This document shows, piece by piece, positions 1-5,714 of a stretch of 11,272 nucleotides of DNA (positions are counted from its first letter, which is position 1; every line of letters begins with the position of its first letter). Made by a program: the position numbers and the translations under genes. The notes under the pieces were generated by a model. It made no database searches. It was not told the DNA's origin and saw nothing but the letters and a program-made list of their open reading frames with translations. The stretch comes from a virus: UHGV virus genome UHGV-1554766; one strand, written 5' to 3'.

Positions 1-353
1 CGCTGGTCTTCATCAATGAATCCCATGCCTTTACGAACGGATTCAATCTGGTCTGGATATTGAGTAGCCAACTGACGCAAAGCACCGCGATCACCAGAAG
101 CATAAGCATTAGCGTATGCCTGCTGAAATTCTTTCTGCCGCTGAGCCTGCTTTTCCTGCTGAAACACCCCCGCAATACCTGAAAGGCCTTGCAAAGCAGT
201 CAGCCCAACATTGTTAGCGCCTGAACGCTCAATATCATTGTTCTGCCTGATAAGCTGAAGCGTATTGCCGATGTCATTTACGCTCGGAGCGTTTGAGTTG
301 ACGCCGCCGATACCAGCCAACAATCCGCCGTTTGTTCCTTGCCAAGTAGCCAT
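1..353 (-). CDS. DNA ejection protein, P22 gp20-like; 5' portion only (ATG at 353..351, gene continues beyond window start)
   Basis: Hand translation of the minus strand from ATG 353..351 is open to position 3 (117 codons, no stops): MATWQGTNGGLLAGIGGVNSNAPSV... Preceded by GGGG Shine-Dalgarno (taaGGGGTAATCatg) 9 nt after the gp7-like stop. Product assigned by position after gp7-like in the P22/Sf6 order (26-14-7-20), not by recognised sequence. Confidence 0.55.
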   Translation of the reverse strand, partial: MATWQGTNGGLLAGIGGVNSNAPSVNDIGNTLQLIRQNNDIERSGANNVGLTALQGLSGIAGVFQQEKQAQRQKEFQQAYANAYASGDRGALRQLATQYPDQIESVRKGMGFIDEDQ

Positions 354-362
354 GATTACCCC

Positions 363-1055
363 TTAAAACAACGAGCCAAGCAATCCGATACCAGCACCAA
401 TGCCAGCGCCCCAAGGCGTTGATGTTCCCAAAAGGCTGGCAAGACCTGCACCGGCAATCGCACCAGACGTGCCACCGCTAATTGCAGTCTGAAGACTTGA
501 TGGTTTGTTGGCATTAGCAGCGGCAAGAGCTGCGCTTTGCTGTGCAATGCTGCTCATGTTGTTGGCGTACGTCTGCCCGGCGTTTGCCTGACCTTGCAGA
601 GCACCAAGCCCAACGTTTGCCAGATTGTTGTAATTGCTCATCTGGTTTGATAACCAAGACTGACCGAGAGTCGGCGCGATCGTAGCCAGTTGATTGCTTG
701 TGGCTGTCGAACCAAGTCCACCCGTCGCCTCCGCAGCAGCGAGACTCTGGTAACGCGCCTGACCTGCAAGGTCTTTATACTGCTGAGAGTTGTAATACTG
801 ATTAAGTGCCTGCCCCTGACCTTCTAAACTGGAAAGGTTCTGAAGCTGGTTAACATACTGTTCCGCAAGAGGCGTGAACGGAGCAAGGTTTTTCATGATC
901 GTCTGCCACTGCTGATTTTGCAGGTCTGCTGCATACTTCTGAGCTTCTGCGGCATACTTTGCGCTTTTATCAGAACTGCCACCTTTCCCACCCTTTTCAG
1001 GGCAATAAGGTTCCTCGCCGCGCAGTTTTCTGCCCAGCTTAAATGCATATAACAT
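363..1055 (-). CDS. DNA ejection (injection) protein, P22 gp7-like, 230 aa
   Basis: ORF track 363..1055. Length close to P22 gp7 (about 229 aa as I recall). N-terminus MLYAFKLGRKLRGEEP...KGGKGG; C-terminal about 35 residues are Gly/Ala-rich and hydrophobic (GAIAGAGLASLLG...GAGIGAGIGLLGSLF). GGGAGA Shine-Dalgarno 5 nt upstream of ATG. Synteny after gp14-like. Confidence 0.75.
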   Translation of the reverse strand: MLYAFKLGRKLRGEEPYCPEKGGKGGSSDKSAKYAAEAQKYAADLQNQQWQTIMKNLAPFTPLAEQYVNQLQNLSSLEGQGQALNQYYNSQQYKDLAGQARYQSLAAAEATGGLGSTATSNQLATIAPTLGQSWLSNQMSNYNNLANVGLGALQGQANAGQTYANNMSSIAQQSAALAAANANKPSSLQTAISGGTSGAIAGAGLASLLGTSTPWGAGIGAGIGLLGSLF

Positions 1056-1513: not shown

Positions 1514-2361
1514 TACTGCTCCGCGATTATCTTGATGGTTGTTGCAGTAAACGCCGCACCATTCGACTGAATGGTTAACGTACTGCCATTTGTGGCAAGA
1601 AAGCCGTCTTTATCCACGCTGAAGAACGTAGCTAACAGGATGTTATCGGTTGTTGTCGCCGAGTTGCGACTGCTTACCAGTGTGTCAGGAACAGAGCCGG
1701 AAAAGGTTAGCTGCATTGATCTGTTGGCGGTTCCGCTGGGCCACGCCCCGACGATCGACAGCTTGAAGAACAAGGTTTTGTTCTCGTTGAACACAACCAT
1801 CTTGTTGTTAACGGTGTCGAAGAATGGTGCCAACGAGCCTGATGACGGCGTGAGCGTTTTCAGCAGGCTAACAAGGTTGGTCGGCGCTGTCGGGATGGTT
1901 ACAGATACGCCAGAGTAAACAACCTCTGACTTCTTGCGAGTAGTGGCATACTCCAGAGCATCGATGCGCGTTTCATGGTCTGAAACCTGCGACTCCAGCG
2001 ACTGAACTCTGGTATCAAGCGACGCAATATCGCTTTCATTCTGAGCGATTCGCGTTTCATGTTCCTGAAGAGTTGATTCTGCCTGGCTGATTCGCTCCTC
2101 ATGATTAACAAGCGTTGCTTCCGCAGCAGAAATTCGCTGCTCATGGTCAGCGAGAATCACATCCTGCTCATCGTTCCTGACTTGTGCGTCATAAGCACCC
2201 TGTCCGGCCTCGTTGGCTTTGTTCGCCACGTTACCAACATCAGTGCCCTGTGCGATAACGTAAAGCAGATACGACTGCGAGAAGATATTGCGTGGAAGGA
2301 CTGATGTGTCGAGCCGTGTAGCCTGAATGATTACCGGCACATTGAGATTCGAATCCGCCAT
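1513..2361 (-). CDS. Tail needle (cell-envelope penetrating plug) protein, P22 gp26-like with Sf6-type C-terminal knob, 282 aa
   Basis: N-terminal about 60 aa ([43 protein letters not shown]...NDEQDV) closely match my recollection of the P22 gp26 N-terminus. Central segment has HE-x-RI heptad-type repeats typical of a trimeric coiled coil. About 50 aa longer than P22 gp26 (233 aa as I recall), with a Ser/Thr/Asn-rich C-terminal domain. Start overlaps gp10-like stop (TAATG). Confidence 0.9.
1960..2150 (-). repeat. In-frame imperfect DNA repeats inside the tail-needle gene encoding HE(Q/E/T)RI coiled-coil motifs
   Basis: Plus-strand motif cg(c/t)g(t/c)t(t/c)catg(g/a)t recurs near 1967, 2050, 2096 and 2137. 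Spacing of about 42, 46 and 83 nt matches the protein motifs DHEQRIS, NHEERIS, EHETRIA and DHETRID. Confidence 0.5.
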
Positions 2362-3779
2362 TACTCAATCCTTATCTGGCAGCCAGACAGAGTGACAGGT
2401 GACTTCGTGATAACGCGCAATTTGAAGCCAATGTTTTTCCTGATGCGCCCTACTCTCTTCCACAAAACGCGTTTGTCGTAAACGAACGGTTCATTCTGCT
2501 CAATCATCTGCTCACGGCCGTAATTGATGCCGTCAGTTGTAGCAGAGAGGAACAGGCGGTCAGCGTACTGCGCAACACCAGTTGACGATTCAACTTCAAG
2601 GTCAAACACTCTTGCGTTATCCGCTTTGAACAATGGAGTAAACAGCAGGTGTTCCTGTTGCTTGTCGTACTGGCTGCTGATATCGAACTGCAGTTTCCCG
2701 GTCACGGACTCCAGTTTATCGCCGCACGTTATCTGATTGCCTTCGTAAATGAAGTCGATAGCGCGGTACACATCGTCATACAGGCCTGTTTTCAGCACAC
2801 ACCATTGCGGACCATTAGCGCTTGAAGATGCGTCATACACTAGGACGTGGCGCGGCAGGTGGATAATCAGCAACTCATGAGCATCAAAGCGCAACGATTC
2901 CATCACGCCATCAGCCAGTTCATCAGCAGTGTAGGAGCGGAGGATTTTCTCAATGCTCGCGCTGGCAATTGGTGACACCTGACCGGAGCCGATGATATAC
3001 ACAGACGGCGCACCCGTTGCCGGATTGCTGATGAACGCATACGAATCAGCAAACGGCGTTTTGCAGTAAGTCCCGGCAATACCTTTCTGCACCATCAATG
3101 ATGGCTGTGCGACATACAAAGCGGCACCAACGGTGGTTGCCCCCGTCAGGGAGAAATATTCAATCGTCGATGAACCAAAGCAGACGATGAAGTCTCGCCA
3201 TGTTCCGATGCCGATGATGCCGTCAGGCTGAGACTCAGCACGATATTGTGCGCTGTAACGGTCAGGATGCGATTCGTCTTCAAGGTCAGTGATAAACCAT
3301 GAATCAGTTCCGTCTTTTGACCACGCATAACGCCCACGTAAGCGCGTAATGTCACGAACCGAACCTAACTCATACTGCGTGAATCCGCTGTCTGTAGGCC
3401 AGTTTGAGACGGTTTTAACCGTGCCATCATAGCGATACTCGACCAGTTGACCATTAACGCCTACAGCCTGAGATGTCCGACCATGCGCCATTGATACGCG
3501 ACCACTTCCGGCGACGTCACCGACTTCACTTTCTCCTTTGTACAGTTTGCCACCACACACGCGATAAACAGCATTCTGCGCCATGTTGTACTCGACGCCT
3601 CGTGATACACCGTTCACATCAGAACGTTTGGCAATGCCCGGGAATGAGCGAAGATATCCGCTGCTGTTCAGGATTTCTTTGGGTGTAGCCAACATATTCA
3701 CTGGCAGATAGTCGATATAGTCGGCGTTTCGAAAGTCTTTGCCGACACCTTTCATAAGCGGAAGTTGCTGAATCGGCAT
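2361..3779 (-). CDS. Tail accessory factor / head completion protein, P22 gp10-like, 472 aa
   Basis: ORF track 2361..3779. Length identical to P22 gp10 as I recall it (472 aa). Lies between gp4-like and the tail needle as in P22 (4-10-26). GGTGA Shine-Dalgarno upstream of ATG, 9 nt after the gp4-like stop. Confidence 0.85.
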
Positions 3780-3788
3780 TTATTCACC

Positions 3789-4250
3789 TCACGTACTCGG
3801 ATCATCTTTCTCGATGTAAAACCGATTCCACGTAAACGCGCTTTTGTTACCACTACCGCGAGGCATGTCATTTCGCCGCTCAAGTGGTGGTATTTTGGTT
3901 AAAGCGATGCAAATTGTCTGGTATGCACTGTCAGCAGCGGTAAGGAGAACGTCTGACGGCTGAATGACGTTATCCATGCACACTTGCACAGCGAGTTTCA
4001 AGGCGACGCCATCATTTGCCCATGCAGGGATACCTGAATCATCGTCAGGTAACGGCATGATGCCGTTTTCTGTATCAGCAAACTGATATCCAAGCTCGAT
4101 ACCTTTAGCCTGCCATGCTGCCATCATGTCTTCGAGGTCATTAATGGCATCTTCAATTGCCTGAGGGTCAGCATCTGTCAACGTGGCATTGGAATACAGC
4201 CCAGCTTTTCGTAAAGCCTTTAGAACGAGATCACCCTTCGTTTTCGCCAT
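3789..4250 (-). CDS. Tail accessory factor / head completion protein, P22 gp4-like, 153 aa
   Basis: N-terminus MAKTKGDLVLKALRKAGLYSNATLTDADPQAIEDAINDLEDMMAAW resembles the P22 gp4 N-terminus as I recall it (..KTKGDLV..ALRKLG..ATLTD..PQ...DA.DDLEAMMAEW). Size close to P22 gp4 (about 166 aa). Synteny. Confidence 0.85.
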   Translation of the reverse strand: MAKTKGDLVLKALRKAGLYSNATLTDADPQAIEDAINDLEDMMAAWQAKGIELGYQFADTENGIMPLPDDDSGIPAWANDGVALKLAVQVCMDNVIQPSDVLLTAADSAYQTICIALTKIPPLERRNDMPRGSGNKSAFTWNRFYIEKDDPST

Positions 4251-4419
4251 CTTCTTCCGCCTTAGCCACTTTTTGCTTCGTTGCGGTTTCTTCAGGAGTT
4301 TTTACCCAACCTTTTTTCAGGTGAGATTTAACTTCTTCGTCATCAACAATGATGTAATCGACAGCAAACTGACCACAGGTGATCATGTTGCCAGGCTTAT
4401 AGAGCATTGTTCGTGCCAT
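4231..4419 (-). CDS. Small hypothetical protein, 62 aa, at the position of Sf6 gene 6 (between coat and gp4-like)
   Basis: The track ORF 4231..4458 starts inside the terminator hairpin. The internal ATG at 4419..4417 has a well-spaced Shine-Dalgarno (GGGAGAAGACAatg) and gives MARTMLYKPGNMITCGQFAVDYIIVDDEEVKSHLKKGWVKTPEETATKQKVAKAEEDGENEG. Its 3' end overlaps the gp4-like start by 20 nt in another frame. Confidence 0.5.
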   Translation of the reverse strand: MARTMLYKPGNMITCGQFAVDYIIVDDEEVKSHLKKGWVKTPEETATKQKVAKAEEDGENEG

Positions 4420-4430
4420 TGTCTTCTCCC

Positions 4431-4454
4431 AATAAAAATGGGGCCGAAGCCCCA
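4431..4454 (-). terminator. Rho-independent terminator directly downstream of the coat gene
   Basis: Plus strand 4439..4454 tggggc-cgaa-gcccca forms a perfect 6-bp GC-rich stem with a 4-nt loop (UUCG on the minus-strand transcript). On the minus strand it is followed by TTTTTATT (4438..4431). It begins 7 nt after the coat stop codon. Confidence 0.7.
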
Positions 4455-4460
4455 CCAAAA

Positions 4461-5714
4461 TTACTGCCCGGCAATAACGATGCCCGTATATTCAGGAACC
4501 AGTACAGAGCAACCGTACAGAGTGGTGAAACGTGCAGTGGTTACGCCTTTGATGTGGTCGAAGGCGTAAGACATGATCAGCGTAGCGCCCTGCTCGGTGG
4601 TTGCTGTCATTACCTGTGGCCCCTGACCAGTCGGGAATGCCAGTTTGCCGTACATCAGTTCAACAGAACCATCAGCCCAGAATAGGTTAGCCGGTGCTGC
4701 GTTCTTGTTGAGAATGGTGATTGCTGCTGATTCTGCCGGTTTGGCATCGACGTTTGCATATGGACGACTCGCAACATCAGTATTTTCAACAGGGAGAATC
4801 TTTGGAGAAATTGTTACGGTAGTTCCGCTAACAGCCAGAACACGGAATACCTGCGGTTGACCGGTGGTATCTTTTGTGATCTGGTGTACGGAATTCACAC
4901 CGGCAATGGTGAACGCATCACCAACCTGCAAGCCAGATGCAGATACCGTAATAGTCCCCTGTCGGTTATCAACTGGCATACCATTTGAATCTTTCGCTTC
5001 AACCTTGTGTTCAGGTTGGCCTGATACTGTCAAGGATTCAGTGCTTCCTTTCGGTAATCGACCAGAAATATCGGTCTTGTAGCTATCAAAGGACGCAACC
5101 GGAGGGATCTGCGCTTTTTCGTATGCTGTCAGGGTTGCGCCCTGAGCATAGGCACGGTGACCAAGCTCGCCAGCAAGGTCTTTGTAGTTGAAGGGGTTCC
5201 AGAAAGAGCGGCGGTTGATACCCTGTGGTACACCAATCGCCGTCATGGTGGCATCAATACCTGCCGCACAGTTCCACAAATCACGGCCCTGTGAACCAGT
5301 GGTTGAGTCAGCCATTGTGATCACGTTAGTAGCACGCTGCGTGACCATGGAAATCAGGTCAGAGTCAATCTGTGCAGCAAGGCGCATACCTGCGGCTCGA
5401 CCAGCTTCAGTTTTATGTTCCGGGTCACGCATTTCACGCGCATCCAGAGTGTACAGAATGTTTTTCGGCTCCTTGAACACAGAAGGAACAAGGCGCTGAA
5501 CCAGTGCTGTAGGCGTTTTGCCGCTGAGATCGAGGCCTTCTTCAATGTTCATGTGGTAATGCTGCGGACGATACAGAACATCACCTGCTCGCTGCATTGC
5601 TGTATCACCGGGACGGAATTTTTTAGCGTTACGGGAAACTACGCAGGCGGCCTCAAAGCCTTCAACGTAGTTTTCGAACATGATTTCAAGGTCTTTTGCT
5701 AATTGGTTAGCCAT
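4461..5714 (-). CDS. Major capsid (coat) protein, P22 gp5-like, 417 aa
   Basis: ORF track 4461..5714. Size near P22 coat (430 aa). C-terminal segment RPYANVDAKPAESAAITILNKNAAPANLFWADGSVEL resembles P22 coat [37 protein letters not shown] as I recall it. Directly downstream of scaffold as in P22 (8-5). GGAG Shine-Dalgarno upstream; strong terminator after the stop. Confidence 0.9.
   Translation of the reverse strand: MANQLAKDLEIMFENYVEGFEAACVVSRNAKKFRPGDTAMQRAGDVLYRPQHYHMNIEEGLDLSGKTPTALVQRLVPSVFKEPKNILYTLDAREMRDPEHKTEAGRAAGMRLAAQIDSDLISMVTQRATNVITMADSTTGSQGRDLWNCAAGIDATMTAIGVPQGINRRSFWNPFNYKDLAGELGHRAYAQGATLTAYEKAQIPPVASFDSYKTDISGRLPKGSTESLTVSGQPEHKVEAKDSNGMPVDNRQGTITVSASGLQVGDAFTIAGVNSVHQITKDTTGQPQVFRVLAVSGTTVTISPKILPVENTDVASRPYANVDAKPAESAAITILNKNAAPANLFWADGSVELMYGKLAFPTGQGPQVMTATTEQGATLIMSYAFDHIKGVTTARFTTLYGCSVLVPEYTGIVIAGQ

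What the first reader, a model, noticed from the sequence alone, without database searches (positions are those of the whole stretch)
4231..4460. Strong intrinsic terminator inside the late operon immediately after the coat gene, followed by a small overlapping ORF
A perfect 6-bp GC stem with UUCG loop and a U-run sits 7 nt after the coat stop. This could attenuate transcription so that downstream tail-accessory and ejection genes are made at lower levels than coat and scaffold, or it could stabilise the coat mRNA 3' end after processing. The next ORF (62 aa, good RBS) starts just after the U-run and overlaps the gp4-like start by 20 nt, which suggests translational coupling. Its product is basic/acidic and of unknown function.
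Basis: partly seen in the sequence, partly recalled or inferred. Interest (0 to 1): 0.4.

Follow-up and report, generated by a model that had tools for sequence, protein, structure and literature searches.

The report
Known terminator hairpin after coat gene
This is the ordinary, already annotated terminator-type hairpin and small conserved gene that sit between the coat gene and the head-completion genes of P22-like phages; the sequence features are real and strongly conserved, but what the hairpin does in infected cells has never been measured.

Summary
On the minus strand, 6-7 nt after the coat stop codon, lies UGGGGC-UUCG-GCCCCA followed by UUUUUAUU. A Shine-Dalgarno sequence and a 62-codon ORF follow, and the ORF overlaps the gp4-like start by 20 nt. 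The stem has 5 G-C pairs plus one U-A pair, not 6 G-C pairs.

The window is 98.5% identical to phage CUS-3, so it is CUS-3-like rather than Sf6-like. The same element is already annotated in Sf6 ("t coat", gene 6), HK620 ("tGP5", hkbT) and P22 (stem-loop, orf69). Lambda and HK97 carry an equivalent hairpin after their major capsid genes.

- **Conservation:** 28 of 32 diverse P22-like loci have a terminator motif within 40 nt of the coat stop, although their coat proteins are often only 16-31% identical to the window's. About 0.07 such sites are expected by chance.
- **Small ORF:** it is a real gene (phrog_1175, dN/dS 0.01-0.37) of unknown function.
- **Coupling:** gp4 has its own conserved Shine-Dalgarno sequence, so translational coupling is not required.

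The most likely function is a leaky terminator and 3'-end protector that raises coat and scaffold mRNA relative to downstream genes. This is inferred, not shown. Novelty: already known. Interest is low.

The parts
4461..5714 (-). Coat (major capsid) gene, 417 aa, CUS-3 type; stop TAA at 4463..4461
   Evidence: ORF list. 98.5% nucleotide identity to CUS-3, where it is annotated 'putative coat protein'.
4437..4456 (-). Terminator-type hairpin. Core GGGGC-UUCG-GCCCC at 4453..4440, plus the U4454-A4439 pair and two G-U pairs.
   Evidence: The motif is conserved in 28 of 32 P22-like loci.
4431..4438 (-). U-run UUUUUAUU directly 3' of the stem
   Evidence: The three T columns after the stem are nearly invariant across loci.
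4426..4430 (-). Shine-Dalgarno sequence GGGAG of the small ORF, 6 nt before its ATG
   Evidence: Read from the sequence. A GGAG-type motif sits at the same place in the relatives.
4231..4419 (-). Small gene, 62 aa. It belongs to phrog_1175, the family of P22 orf69 and CUS-3 ECRS218_0017. Residues about 3-45 are folded and the tail is charged and disordered.
   Evidence: Synteny in 30 loci. dN/dS 0.01-0.37. AlphaFold2 mean pLDDT 77.
4257..4264 (-). Shine-Dalgarno-like TAAGGCGG of the gp4-like gene, embedded in the 3' end of the small ORF, 6 nt before ATG 4250
   Evidence: Read from the sequence. A TAAGG or AAGG core 5-6 nt before the gp4 ATG is present in 22 of 30 loci, including Sf6-type and P22-type.
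3789..4250 (-). gp4-like head-tail adaptor gene, 153 aa. Its first 20 nt overlap the small ORF.
   Evidence: An overlap of 17-26 nt is seen in 24 of 30 loci.

Best explanation
This is the CUS-3-type copy of the 't coat / tGP5' element of P22-like phages. It is an RNA-level, sense-strand intrinsic terminator at the border between two groups of genes. Upstream are the procapsid genes, whose products are needed in hundreds of copies (scaffold, coat). Downstream are the head-completion and ejection genes, needed in a few to a few tens of copies.

Proposed mechanism:
- RNA polymerases that do not carry the Q-type antiterminator stop at the hairpin and U-run, and so does some fraction of those that do.
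- The C(UUCG)G hairpin left at the 3' end then shields the upstream message from 3'-to-5' exonucleases.
- Together these effects give more coat and scaffold mRNA than downstream mRNA.
- Read-through transcripts carry the 62-aa gene. Ribosomes translating it run across the gp4 Shine-Dalgarno sequence and AUG.

Shown here: the motif, its strand specificity, its conservation and covariation, the reality of the small gene, and the conserved overlap and gp4 Shine-Dalgarno sequence.

Inferred: that termination happens in vivo, how efficient it is, that the hairpin stabilises the message, and any effect on protein ratios.
For: **Canonical anatomy**
- GC stem, UUCG tetraloop closed by C-G, and 7 U in the 8 nt after the stem.
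- It is the only convincing sense-strand terminator motif in 11.3 kb.

**Conservation**
- 28 of 32 non-redundant loci carry the motif within 40 nt of the coat stop. Only 7 other sense-strand sites occur in 187 kb, where shuffles give about 10.
- Information content peaks only on the stem and the T-run, while most coat proteins are 16-31% identical to the window's.

**Pairing support**
- 87% of cells pair, and 0 of 500 shuffles reach that value. All slid registers score lower.
- There are double changes at two pairs: AU/GC/UA and GC/AU.
- Ralstonia phage RSK1 has a different stem (GCCGCCC/GGGCGGC) with the same loop, U-run and position, directly before its small-gene homologue.

**RNA-level signs**
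- The loop reads UUCG on the sense strand in 18 of 26 distinct sequences and never CGAA.
- The U-run is on the sense side only.

**Same architecture elsewhere**
- Sf6, HK620 and P22 annotate it.
- Lambda has UGGCCC-UUCG-GGGCCA plus a U-rich tail, 3 nt after the stop of gene E and before FI.
- The HK97 record lists putative terminators after the major head gene and after the major tail gene.

**Operon context**
- CUS-3 carries a Q antiterminator gene upstream on the same strand.
- Leaky terminators that balance phage gene expression are documented for other phages (PMC9163698).
Against: - I found no transcript 3'-end or read-through data for any P22-like phage in the searchable library.
- From established knowledge, Q-type antiterminators make RNA polymerase resistant to hairpin-dependent terminators. 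Termination of the main late transcript may therefore be slight.
- The stem is short (5-8 pairs, -9.6 to -13.3 kcal/mol), so 'strong' is not established.
- Two loci (L114, L120) keep the hairpin but have a poor U-run. That fits a hairpin-only role.
- The stem sequence, not only its structure, is nearly invariant. A plain terminator does not require that.
Confidence: 0.55

Rival explanations
1. The hairpin is a protective element only. Q-modified polymerase ignores the site. After downstream endonuclease cuts, the hairpin blocks 3'-to-5' exonucleases, so the coat and scaffold message outlives the distal message. No meaningful termination occurs.
For: - A Q antiterminator gene lies upstream in CUS-3.
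- L114 and L120 keep the hairpin while their U-run has decayed.
- The C(UUCG)G tetraloop is exceptionally stable (own knowledge: Tuerk et al. 1988, T4 intercistronic CUUCGG hairpins).
Against: The U-run is kept in 28 of 32 loci, and the first three T after the stem are nearly invariant. An exonuclease barrier does not need a U-run.
Confidence: 0.2
2. The site is an insulator. It stops only transcripts that started without antitermination, from internal or spurious promoters or from read-in during lysogeny. It keeps such transcripts out of the head-completion and ejection genes and has little effect on the true late transcript.
For: - This role is proposed for phage L (PMC8022706).
Against: - No promoter-like site stands out upstream in this window: 4 consensus matches against 11 expected.
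- This role does not explain why the same placement recurs after the high-copy genes of lambda and HK97.
Confidence: 0.1
3. The element acts at the DNA level as a module boundary. The shared 14-bp sequence serves as a short homology patch (a 'boundary sequence') where coat modules and head-completion modules are exchanged between P22-like phages. Its terminator shape would be secondary.
For: - The stem sequence is nearly invariant next to coat proteins that are mostly 16-31% identical to the window's.
- Within the CUS-3 clade, the 600 nt downstream are 94-99% identical, while the upstream 600 nt fall into classes of about 100, 87, 65 and 21% ungapped identity.
- In L083 identity starts exactly at GGGGC, next to a coat only 67% identical.
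- The CUS-3 record annotates 'boundary sequences' elsewhere.
Against: - The loop orientation and the U-run are specific to the sense strand.
- RSK1, lambda and HK97 have different stems at the same place.
- Joints at gene borders are expected from selection alone.
- Another joint lies inside the small ORF (L035).
Confidence: 0.08
4. The hairpin serves the downstream gene. In read-through or processed RNA it forms a 5' stem-loop about 10 nt before the Shine-Dalgarno sequence of the small ORF. There it would stabilise the distal message or set the translation of the small ORF and, through the overlap, of gp4.
For: The arrangement of hairpin, U-run and Shine-Dalgarno sequence is similar wherever the small gene directly follows the hairpin, and in RSK1 the hairpin stays next to the small gene rather than the coat.
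Against: In Xenorhabdus prophages and in L121 an extra gene is inserted between the hairpin and the small ORF. There the hairpin stays with the coat gene.
Confidence: 0.05

Closest known systems
Sf6 't coat' terminator with gene 6, and HK620 'tGP5' with hkbT (GenBank/RefSeq annotations)
   Same: Same slot between the coat gene and the gp4-type adaptor. Same GGGGC...GCCCC stem with a U-run, followed by a Shine-Dalgarno sequence and a ~61-aa ORF that overlaps the adaptor start.
   Different: - The loop is UUAC, not UUCG.
- The coat is of a different type, 17% identical.
- The small protein belongs to another PHROG (phrog_3251). Its homology to the window's protein is not shown (hhalign probability 23%).
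P22 stem-loop after gene 5, with orf69
   Same: Same stem, with loop UGCG. orf69 and the window protein are both in phrog_1175 (E 4.5e-31 and 9e-29). The overlap with gene 4 is 17 nt. orf69 is reported as non-essential with unknown role (PMC2629481, citing Eppler et al. 1991).
   Different: - The P22 coat is 31% identical.
- orf69 has a longer tail with a KGRKPKA basic motif. The window protein has only KQKVAKA.
Phage lambda hairpin between E (major capsid) and FI, and the HK97 putative terminator after gp5
   Same: A GC hairpin and a U-rich tail lie a few nt after the major capsid stop, inside a Q-antiterminated late operon. Lambda has the UUCG loop and HK97 a GAAA loop. In lambda the hairpin is followed by a small accessory gene and then the head-closure gene.
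   Different: - The stems have different sequences.
- Lambda FI is not detectably related to the 62-aa protein (hhalign probability 0.6%).
- HK97 has no small gene at this position.
T7 T-phi terminator after gene 10 (major capsid), a leaky terminator that balances expression (own knowledge; T7 is cited as the example in PMC9163698)
   Same: An inefficient terminator placed right after the most abundantly needed structural gene.
   Different: It acts on the phage's own single-subunit RNA polymerase, with no Q-type antitermination. There is no sequence relationship.

Membership tests
Rho-independent (intrinsic) terminator | GC-rich stem-loop on the transcribed strand | tested here: met
   5 G-C pairs plus 1 U-A pair (and 2 G-U pairs), UUCG loop, -9.6 to -13.3 kcal/mol.
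Rho-independent (intrinsic) terminator | U-tract immediately 3' of the stem | tested here: met
   UUUUUAUU at 4438..4431. Conserved in 28 of 32 loci.
Rho-independent (intrinsic) terminator | RNA 3' ends are formed there by RNA polymerase | not testable with these tools
   I found no transcript data in the library.
t coat / tGP5 element of P22-like phages | Located between the coat stop and the small gene that precedes the gp4-type adaptor | tested here: met
   Same order in 30 loci.
t coat / tGP5 element of P22-like phages | GGGGC-N4-GCCCC core followed by a T-run | tested here: met
   Exact core at 4453..4440. Alignment A3.
phrog_1175 (P22 orf69 family) | Significant match to the family profile | tested here: met
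   E 9.2e-29 over residues 2-56. P22 orf69 scores E 4.5e-31. There is no Pfam or NCBIfam model.
phrog_1175 (P22 orf69 family) | Coding sequence under purifying selection | tested here: met
   dN/dS is 0.01-0.37 for the N-terminal 44 codons in pairs within subgroups.
Translationally coupled overlapping gene pair | The upstream stop lies at or beyond the downstream start | tested here: met
   20-nt overlap here. Overlaps of 17, 20, 23 or 26 nt occur in 24 of 30 loci.
Translationally coupled overlapping gene pair | The downstream gene lacks its own ribosome-binding site, so it depends on upstream translation | tested here: not met
   A conserved TAAGGCGG lies 6 nt before the gp4 ATG (window 4264..4257). 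Actual dependence on upstream translation cannot be tested here.
Repeat module of the C-terminal arm of some GIY-YIG homing endonucleases (presumed DNA-binding) | Profile similarity to the repeat G.I.I.K.G..K.I...EL..YL..GW | tested here: inconclusive
   A profile search found 300-800-aa proteins with 4-7 matching stretches. Of the seven scanned against Pfam, two carry a GIY-YIG domain and one also a NUMOD3 motif. hhalign gives 96% probability and E 4e-9, but over only 20 columns. No solved structure exists. Nucleic-acid binding is untested.
Lambda FI packaging chaperone | Sequence or profile similarity to FI | tested here: not met
   hhalign probability 0.6%. Only the position after the capsid hairpin is shared.

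The most novel reading that the evidence does not exclude
The 62-aa protein may be a one-module nucleic-acid-binding protein rather than filler. Its folded domain (a beta-hairpin followed by a helix ending in ...L..GW) appears to be a single copy of a module that is repeated 4-7 times in the C-terminal, presumably DNA-binding, halves of some GIY-YIG homing endonucleases. Many family members add an AT-hook-like KKPGRKPKA tail.

It could act on DNA at head completion or packaging, in the same slot as lambda FI. It could also act on the message next to the hairpin.
Probability: 0.2. Interest if true: 0.45.

Novelty: already known. Interest (0 to 1): 0.2.

Why it matters
How a single long, antiterminated late transcript yields proteins in ratios from a few copies to several hundred per virion is only partly understood. 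This hairpin sits exactly where the required copy number falls, and it is kept across phages whose coat genes have diverged almost beyond recognition. It is therefore a good, cheap target for a direct test by 3'-end mapping plus stem and U-run mutants.

For genome annotation the result is routine. The element and the small gene can be transferred from Sf6, HK620 and P22 to CUS-3-like prophages.

Tried and rejected
- **Rfam:** no family matched in the window at gathering thresholds.
- **Small protein in curated libraries:** no Pfam or NCBIfam family. There were only weak DUF7302 hits (best E 0.002, 13 of 36 members).
- **Homology between the two small-protein types:** CUS-3/P22-type against Sf6-type gave hhalign probability 23%, so it is not established.
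- **Homology to lambda FI:** rejected.
- **Purging of sense-strand terminators:** I asked whether terminator-like motifs are depleted on the sense strand inside the operon, which would suggest that antitermination is incomplete. The 7-versus-28 sense/antisense asymmetry is explained by base composition, because shuffles give 10 versus 21. Rejected.
- **Database scans:** The search for related loci with the small-protein alignment failed because it has no conserved stretch. The viral-contig scan with gp4 returned only near-identical relatives. The genome scan gave the needed diversity.
- **Literature:** nine searches found no measurement of termination or mRNA decay at this site. The CUS-3 paper and the Casjens and Thuman-Commike 2011 paper are not held.
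- **Bad comparisons set aside:** my first within-clade comparison used a wrong register and was redone. The window-versus-Xenorhabdus dN/dS values are off by one codon and should be ignored.

Full report
**What is there.** The genes of this window run on the minus strand. In order they are small and large terminase, portal, scaffold, a 417-aa coat gene (5714..4461), a small ORF, gp4-, gp10- and gp26-like head-completion genes, a gp14-like gene and a gp7-like ejection gene.

After the coat stop codon (TAA, 4463..4461) the RNA reads UUUUGG-UGGGGC-UUCG-GCCCCA-UUUUUAUU-GGGAGAAGACA-AUG. The GC core is 4453..4440. U4454-A4439 gives a sixth pair and two G-U pairs extend the stem to 4456..4437.

The hairpin alone folds at -9.6 kcal/mol (5 pairs) to -13.3 kcal/mol (20 nt), and few or no shuffles fold as well. 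A wider 61-nt context is not exceptional (z = -1.2), so the signal is the local hairpin and nothing larger.

The 62-codon ORF runs from 4419 to 4231 and has a GGGAG Shine-Dalgarno sequence 6 nt before its ATG. It overlaps the gp4-like start (ATG at 4250) by 20 nt.

**Where the window comes from.** The 2.1 kb around the site is 98.5% identical to Enterobacteria phage CUS-3 and 93-98% identical to ten other records of Escherichia, Shigella and Klebsiella phages of the genus Lederbergvirus. Similarity to Sf6 and HK620 at the DNA level begins only at the 3' end of the gp4-like gene. The window's coat protein is 17% identical to the Sf6 coat and 31% identical to the P22 coat. The phage is therefore CUS-3-like rather than Sf6-like.

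In CUS-3 the small ORF is annotated as hypothetical protein ECRS218_0017. RefSeq calls the identical Sf101 gp06 a 'virion structural protein' without stated evidence. CUS-3 carries a Q antiterminator gene, followed by the lysis genes, upstream on the same strand. The site therefore lies inside a Q-dependent late operon.

**It is already annotated in relatives.**
- The Sf6 record marks a 'stem-loop that is likely to be a transcription terminator; t coat' between gene 5 and gene 6.
- The HK620 record marks 'consensus termination sequence following major capsid transcript; tGP5' before hkbT.
- The P22 record marks a putative stem-loop 'similar in location to stem-loops in phage HK97 and phage lambda' before orf69.
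[quoted passage not shown] It says the roles of such terminators 'are not known', and suggests partial termination or the stopping of transcripts that start without antitermination (PMC8022706).
- The epsilon34 paper says the gene at this position varies in length, has an unknown role, and is not essential in P22, citing Eppler et al. 1991 (PMC2629481).

**How conserved is the hairpin?** A scan of one genome per bacterial species with a gp4 alignment gave 38 prophage loci from Escherichia, Xenorhabdus, Arsenophonus, Proteus, Yersinia, Pantoea, Erwinia, Tatumella, Citrobacter and other genera.

I defined a strict motif: at least 5 pairs with at least 4 G-C, a loop of 3-6 nt, and at least 5 T in 8 nt.
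- It occurs within 40 nt after the coat stop in 28 of 32 non-redundant loci.
- Only 7 other sense-strand sites occur in 187 kb.
- Dinucleotide shuffles give about 10 sites per 187 kb, which is about 0.07 expected in those 32 short windows.

When the loci are anchored on the loop, information content rises only over GGGGC-N4-GCCCC and the following T-run. The last coat codons, the spacer (5-19 nt from the stop to the core) and the sequence beyond the T-run are unconserved.

On 26 distinct sequences, 87% of cells pair, and 0 of 500 shuffles reach that value. Every slid register scores lower. Two pairs show double changes: A-U/G-C/U-A at the outer pair and G-C/A-U inside the stem. The other core pairs never vary, so they say nothing either way.

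Long-range support comes from more distant phages:
- Ralstonia phage RSK1 has GGGCCGCCC-UUCG-GGGCGGC plus a U-run directly before its homologue of the small gene.
- Lambda has UGGCCC-UUCG-GGGCCA plus a U-rich tail, 3 nt after the stop of gene E and before FI.
- HK97 has GGGCGGG-GAAA-CCCGCCC plus UUUU after its major head gene, annotated as a putative terminator. It has further putative terminators before and after the major tail gene.
- Folding energies at these sites range from -12 to -21 kcal/mol.

The loop reads UUCG on the sense strand in 18 of 26 distinct sequences and never CGAA. The T-run lies on the sense side only. Both point to a function in the RNA.

**Most likely mechanism.** The element has everything a Rho-independent terminator needs. 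It sits where the required protein copy number drops, from hundreds for coat and scaffold to a few or a few tens for the products downstream (copy numbers are established P22 knowledge).

I therefore favour a leaky terminator whose hairpin also protects the 3' end of the upstream message, so that coat and scaffold mRNA exceed distal mRNA (confidence 0.55).

The main uncertainty is Q-type antitermination, which is known to make polymerase resistant to hairpin terminators. The element may then act mainly after transcription as an exonuclease barrier (0.2), or mainly on polymerases that were never modified (0.1).
- The conserved U-run argues for real termination.
- Two loci that keep the hairpin but have lost most of the U-run (L114, L120) argue that the hairpin has value on its own.
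- I found no transcript mapping for any P22-like phage that settles this. The BTP1 prophage transcriptome paper reports only that the capsid cluster has four coding-strand promoters (PMC7067206).
- Leaky terminators that tune phage expression are documented elsewhere (PMC9163698).

**A DNA-level side to the story.** The near-invariance of the stem sequence is more than a terminator needs. Within the CUS-3 clade, the 600 nt downstream of the hairpin are always 94-99% identical to the window. The 600 nt upstream fall into discrete classes.

In contig L083 the coat is 67% identical in protein, and nucleotide identity switches to 100% exactly at the first G of the core. In L035 the switch lies about 65 nt into the small ORF. 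The hairpin therefore coincides with a mosaic joint.

This could mean that the shared 14-mer helps module exchange. It could equally mean that only joints at gene borders survive.

**The small gene.** It is a real gene.
- It matches phrog_1175 (E 9e-29), as does P22 orf69.
- More than 500 protein clusters match a family profile, and all are unnamed.
- A small ORF occupies the same slot in all 30 loci examined.
- The N-terminal 44 codons show dN/dS of 0.01-0.37 within subgroups.

Two sequence types occupy the slot. The CUS-3/P22 type reads MLYKPG...VV..EE...L..GW..HP. The Sf6/HK620 type (phrog_3251) reads MDRMSVF..DNE.G.VQAVI..DF..GFV. Their homology is not shown.

AlphaFold2 predicts a beta-hairpin (residues 3-26), a helix (27-35), a second helix (42-56) and a disordered end. 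Mean pLDDT is 77, and above 80 for the first 40 residues. No solved or annotated fold matches significantly.

Long forms of the protein carry an inserted WDGH domain. These include a 206-aa protein in L114 and, by its size and matching PHROG, phage L orf186.

The last six residues (DGENEG) are simply the other reading frame of the conserved gp4 N-terminus MAKTKGD. The 'KA' before them is encoded by AAGGCG, the core of the gp4 Shine-Dalgarno sequence.

**Translational coupling.** The overlap is conserved, at 17, 20, 23 or 26 nt in 24 of 30 loci. A Shine-Dalgarno-like TAAGGCGG also lies 6 nt before the gp4 ATG, and a TAAGG or AAGG core at that spacing is present in 22 of the 30 loci, including both types of small gene (window 4264..4257).

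gp4 therefore has its own ribosome-binding site. Ribosomes translating the small ORF must pass over it and stop 17-26 nt beyond the gp4 AUG. They could open or occlude the site, but strict coupling is not indicated.

**An unexpected lead.** An exhaustive profile search with the family alignment found 467 representatives. Among them were proteins of 300-800 aa with 4-7 matching stretches.
- Of the seven I scanned against Pfam, two (P0191, P0192) carry a GIY-YIG nuclease domain at the N-terminus, and P0192 also has a NUMOD3 motif.
- P0191, P0192 and four further such proteins have C-terminal halves made of tandem copies of G.I.I.K.G..K.I...EL..YL..GW..G.
- A profile-profile comparison of the small-protein family with 28 such repeats gives 96% probability and E 4e-9, but over only 20 columns.
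- Many family members also have an AT-hook-like KKPGRKPKA tail. The window's protein has only KQKVAKA.

This suggests, and does not show, that the protein binds nucleic acid.

**Verdict.** It is a known and annotated feature of P22-like and other lambdoid phages, and the small ORF is a known conserved hypothetical gene. Novelty: already known. Interest: 0.2.

Noticed in passing
window 4440..4453 compared with locus L083 (about 2297) and L035: A mosaic joint coincides with the hairpin. In L083 the coat is 67% identical in protein, and nucleotide identity to the window jumps to 100% exactly at the first G of the core. In L035 the jump is about 65 nt into the small ORF. Across 82 CUS-3-clade loci the downstream 600 nt are 94-99% identical, while the upstream 600 nt fall into discrete classes.
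   Followed up: partly
L090, L091, L093 (Xenorhabdus prophages) 2038..2331; L121 2013..2249: Extra genes are inserted between the coat hairpin and the small ORF. In Xenorhabdus it is a 97-aa Tad2-like protein (Thoeris anti-defence 2-like, PF11195, E 1.4e-23). In L121 it is a 78-aa ORF with no family. The slot after the terminator seems to accept added genes.
   Followed up: partly
window 4231..4419 (-) compared with proteins P0191, P0192, P0196, P0201, P0207, P0213: The folded domain of the 62-aa protein resembles a module repeated 4-7 times in the C-terminal halves of six long proteins, two of which have a confirmed GIY-YIG nuclease domain (consensus G.I.I.K.G..K.I...EL..YL..GW..G). hhalign gives 96% probability over 20 columns. 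The repeat has no Pfam family of its own and no solved structure.
   Followed up: partly
L114 1885..2505; phage L orf186 (PMC8022706): Some phages have a long form of the small gene with a WDGH domain (PF25311, phrog_3769) inserted between the N-terminal module and the charged tail. The P22 and CUS-3 forms lack it. This fits the 'internal deletions' noted in the epsilon34 paper.
   Followed up: partly
window 4257..4264 (-): A Shine-Dalgarno-like TAAGGCGG for the gp4-like gene lies inside the small ORF, and a TAAGG or AAGG core at that spacing is present in 22 of 30 loci in both types of small gene. It explains the conserved Lys-Ala near the small protein's C-terminus. The final DGENEG is the alternative frame of the conserved gp4 N-terminus.
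   Followed up: yes
L127 (lambda) 160..192; L128 (HK97) 693..714, 2193..2220, 2944..2963: Lambda has a C(UUCG)G hairpin and a U-rich tail 3 nt after the stop of gene E, before FI. The HK97 record lists putative terminators after the major head gene and on both sides of the major tail gene. Hairpins after high-copy structural genes look like a general habit of lambdoid late operons.
   Followed up: partly
window 3873..3890 and 4051..4067 (+ strand, antisense to the gp4-like gene): Two terminator-like hairpins with T-rich tails lie on the antisense strand inside the gp4-like gene. Across all loci, the number of antisense motifs is close to what shuffles predict, so these are probably chance.
   Followed up: partly
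NC_027398.1 (Sf101) gp06, identical to the window's 62-aa protein: RefSeq labels this protein 'virion structural protein', whereas every other record calls it hypothetical. I found no evidence for the label.
   Followed up: no
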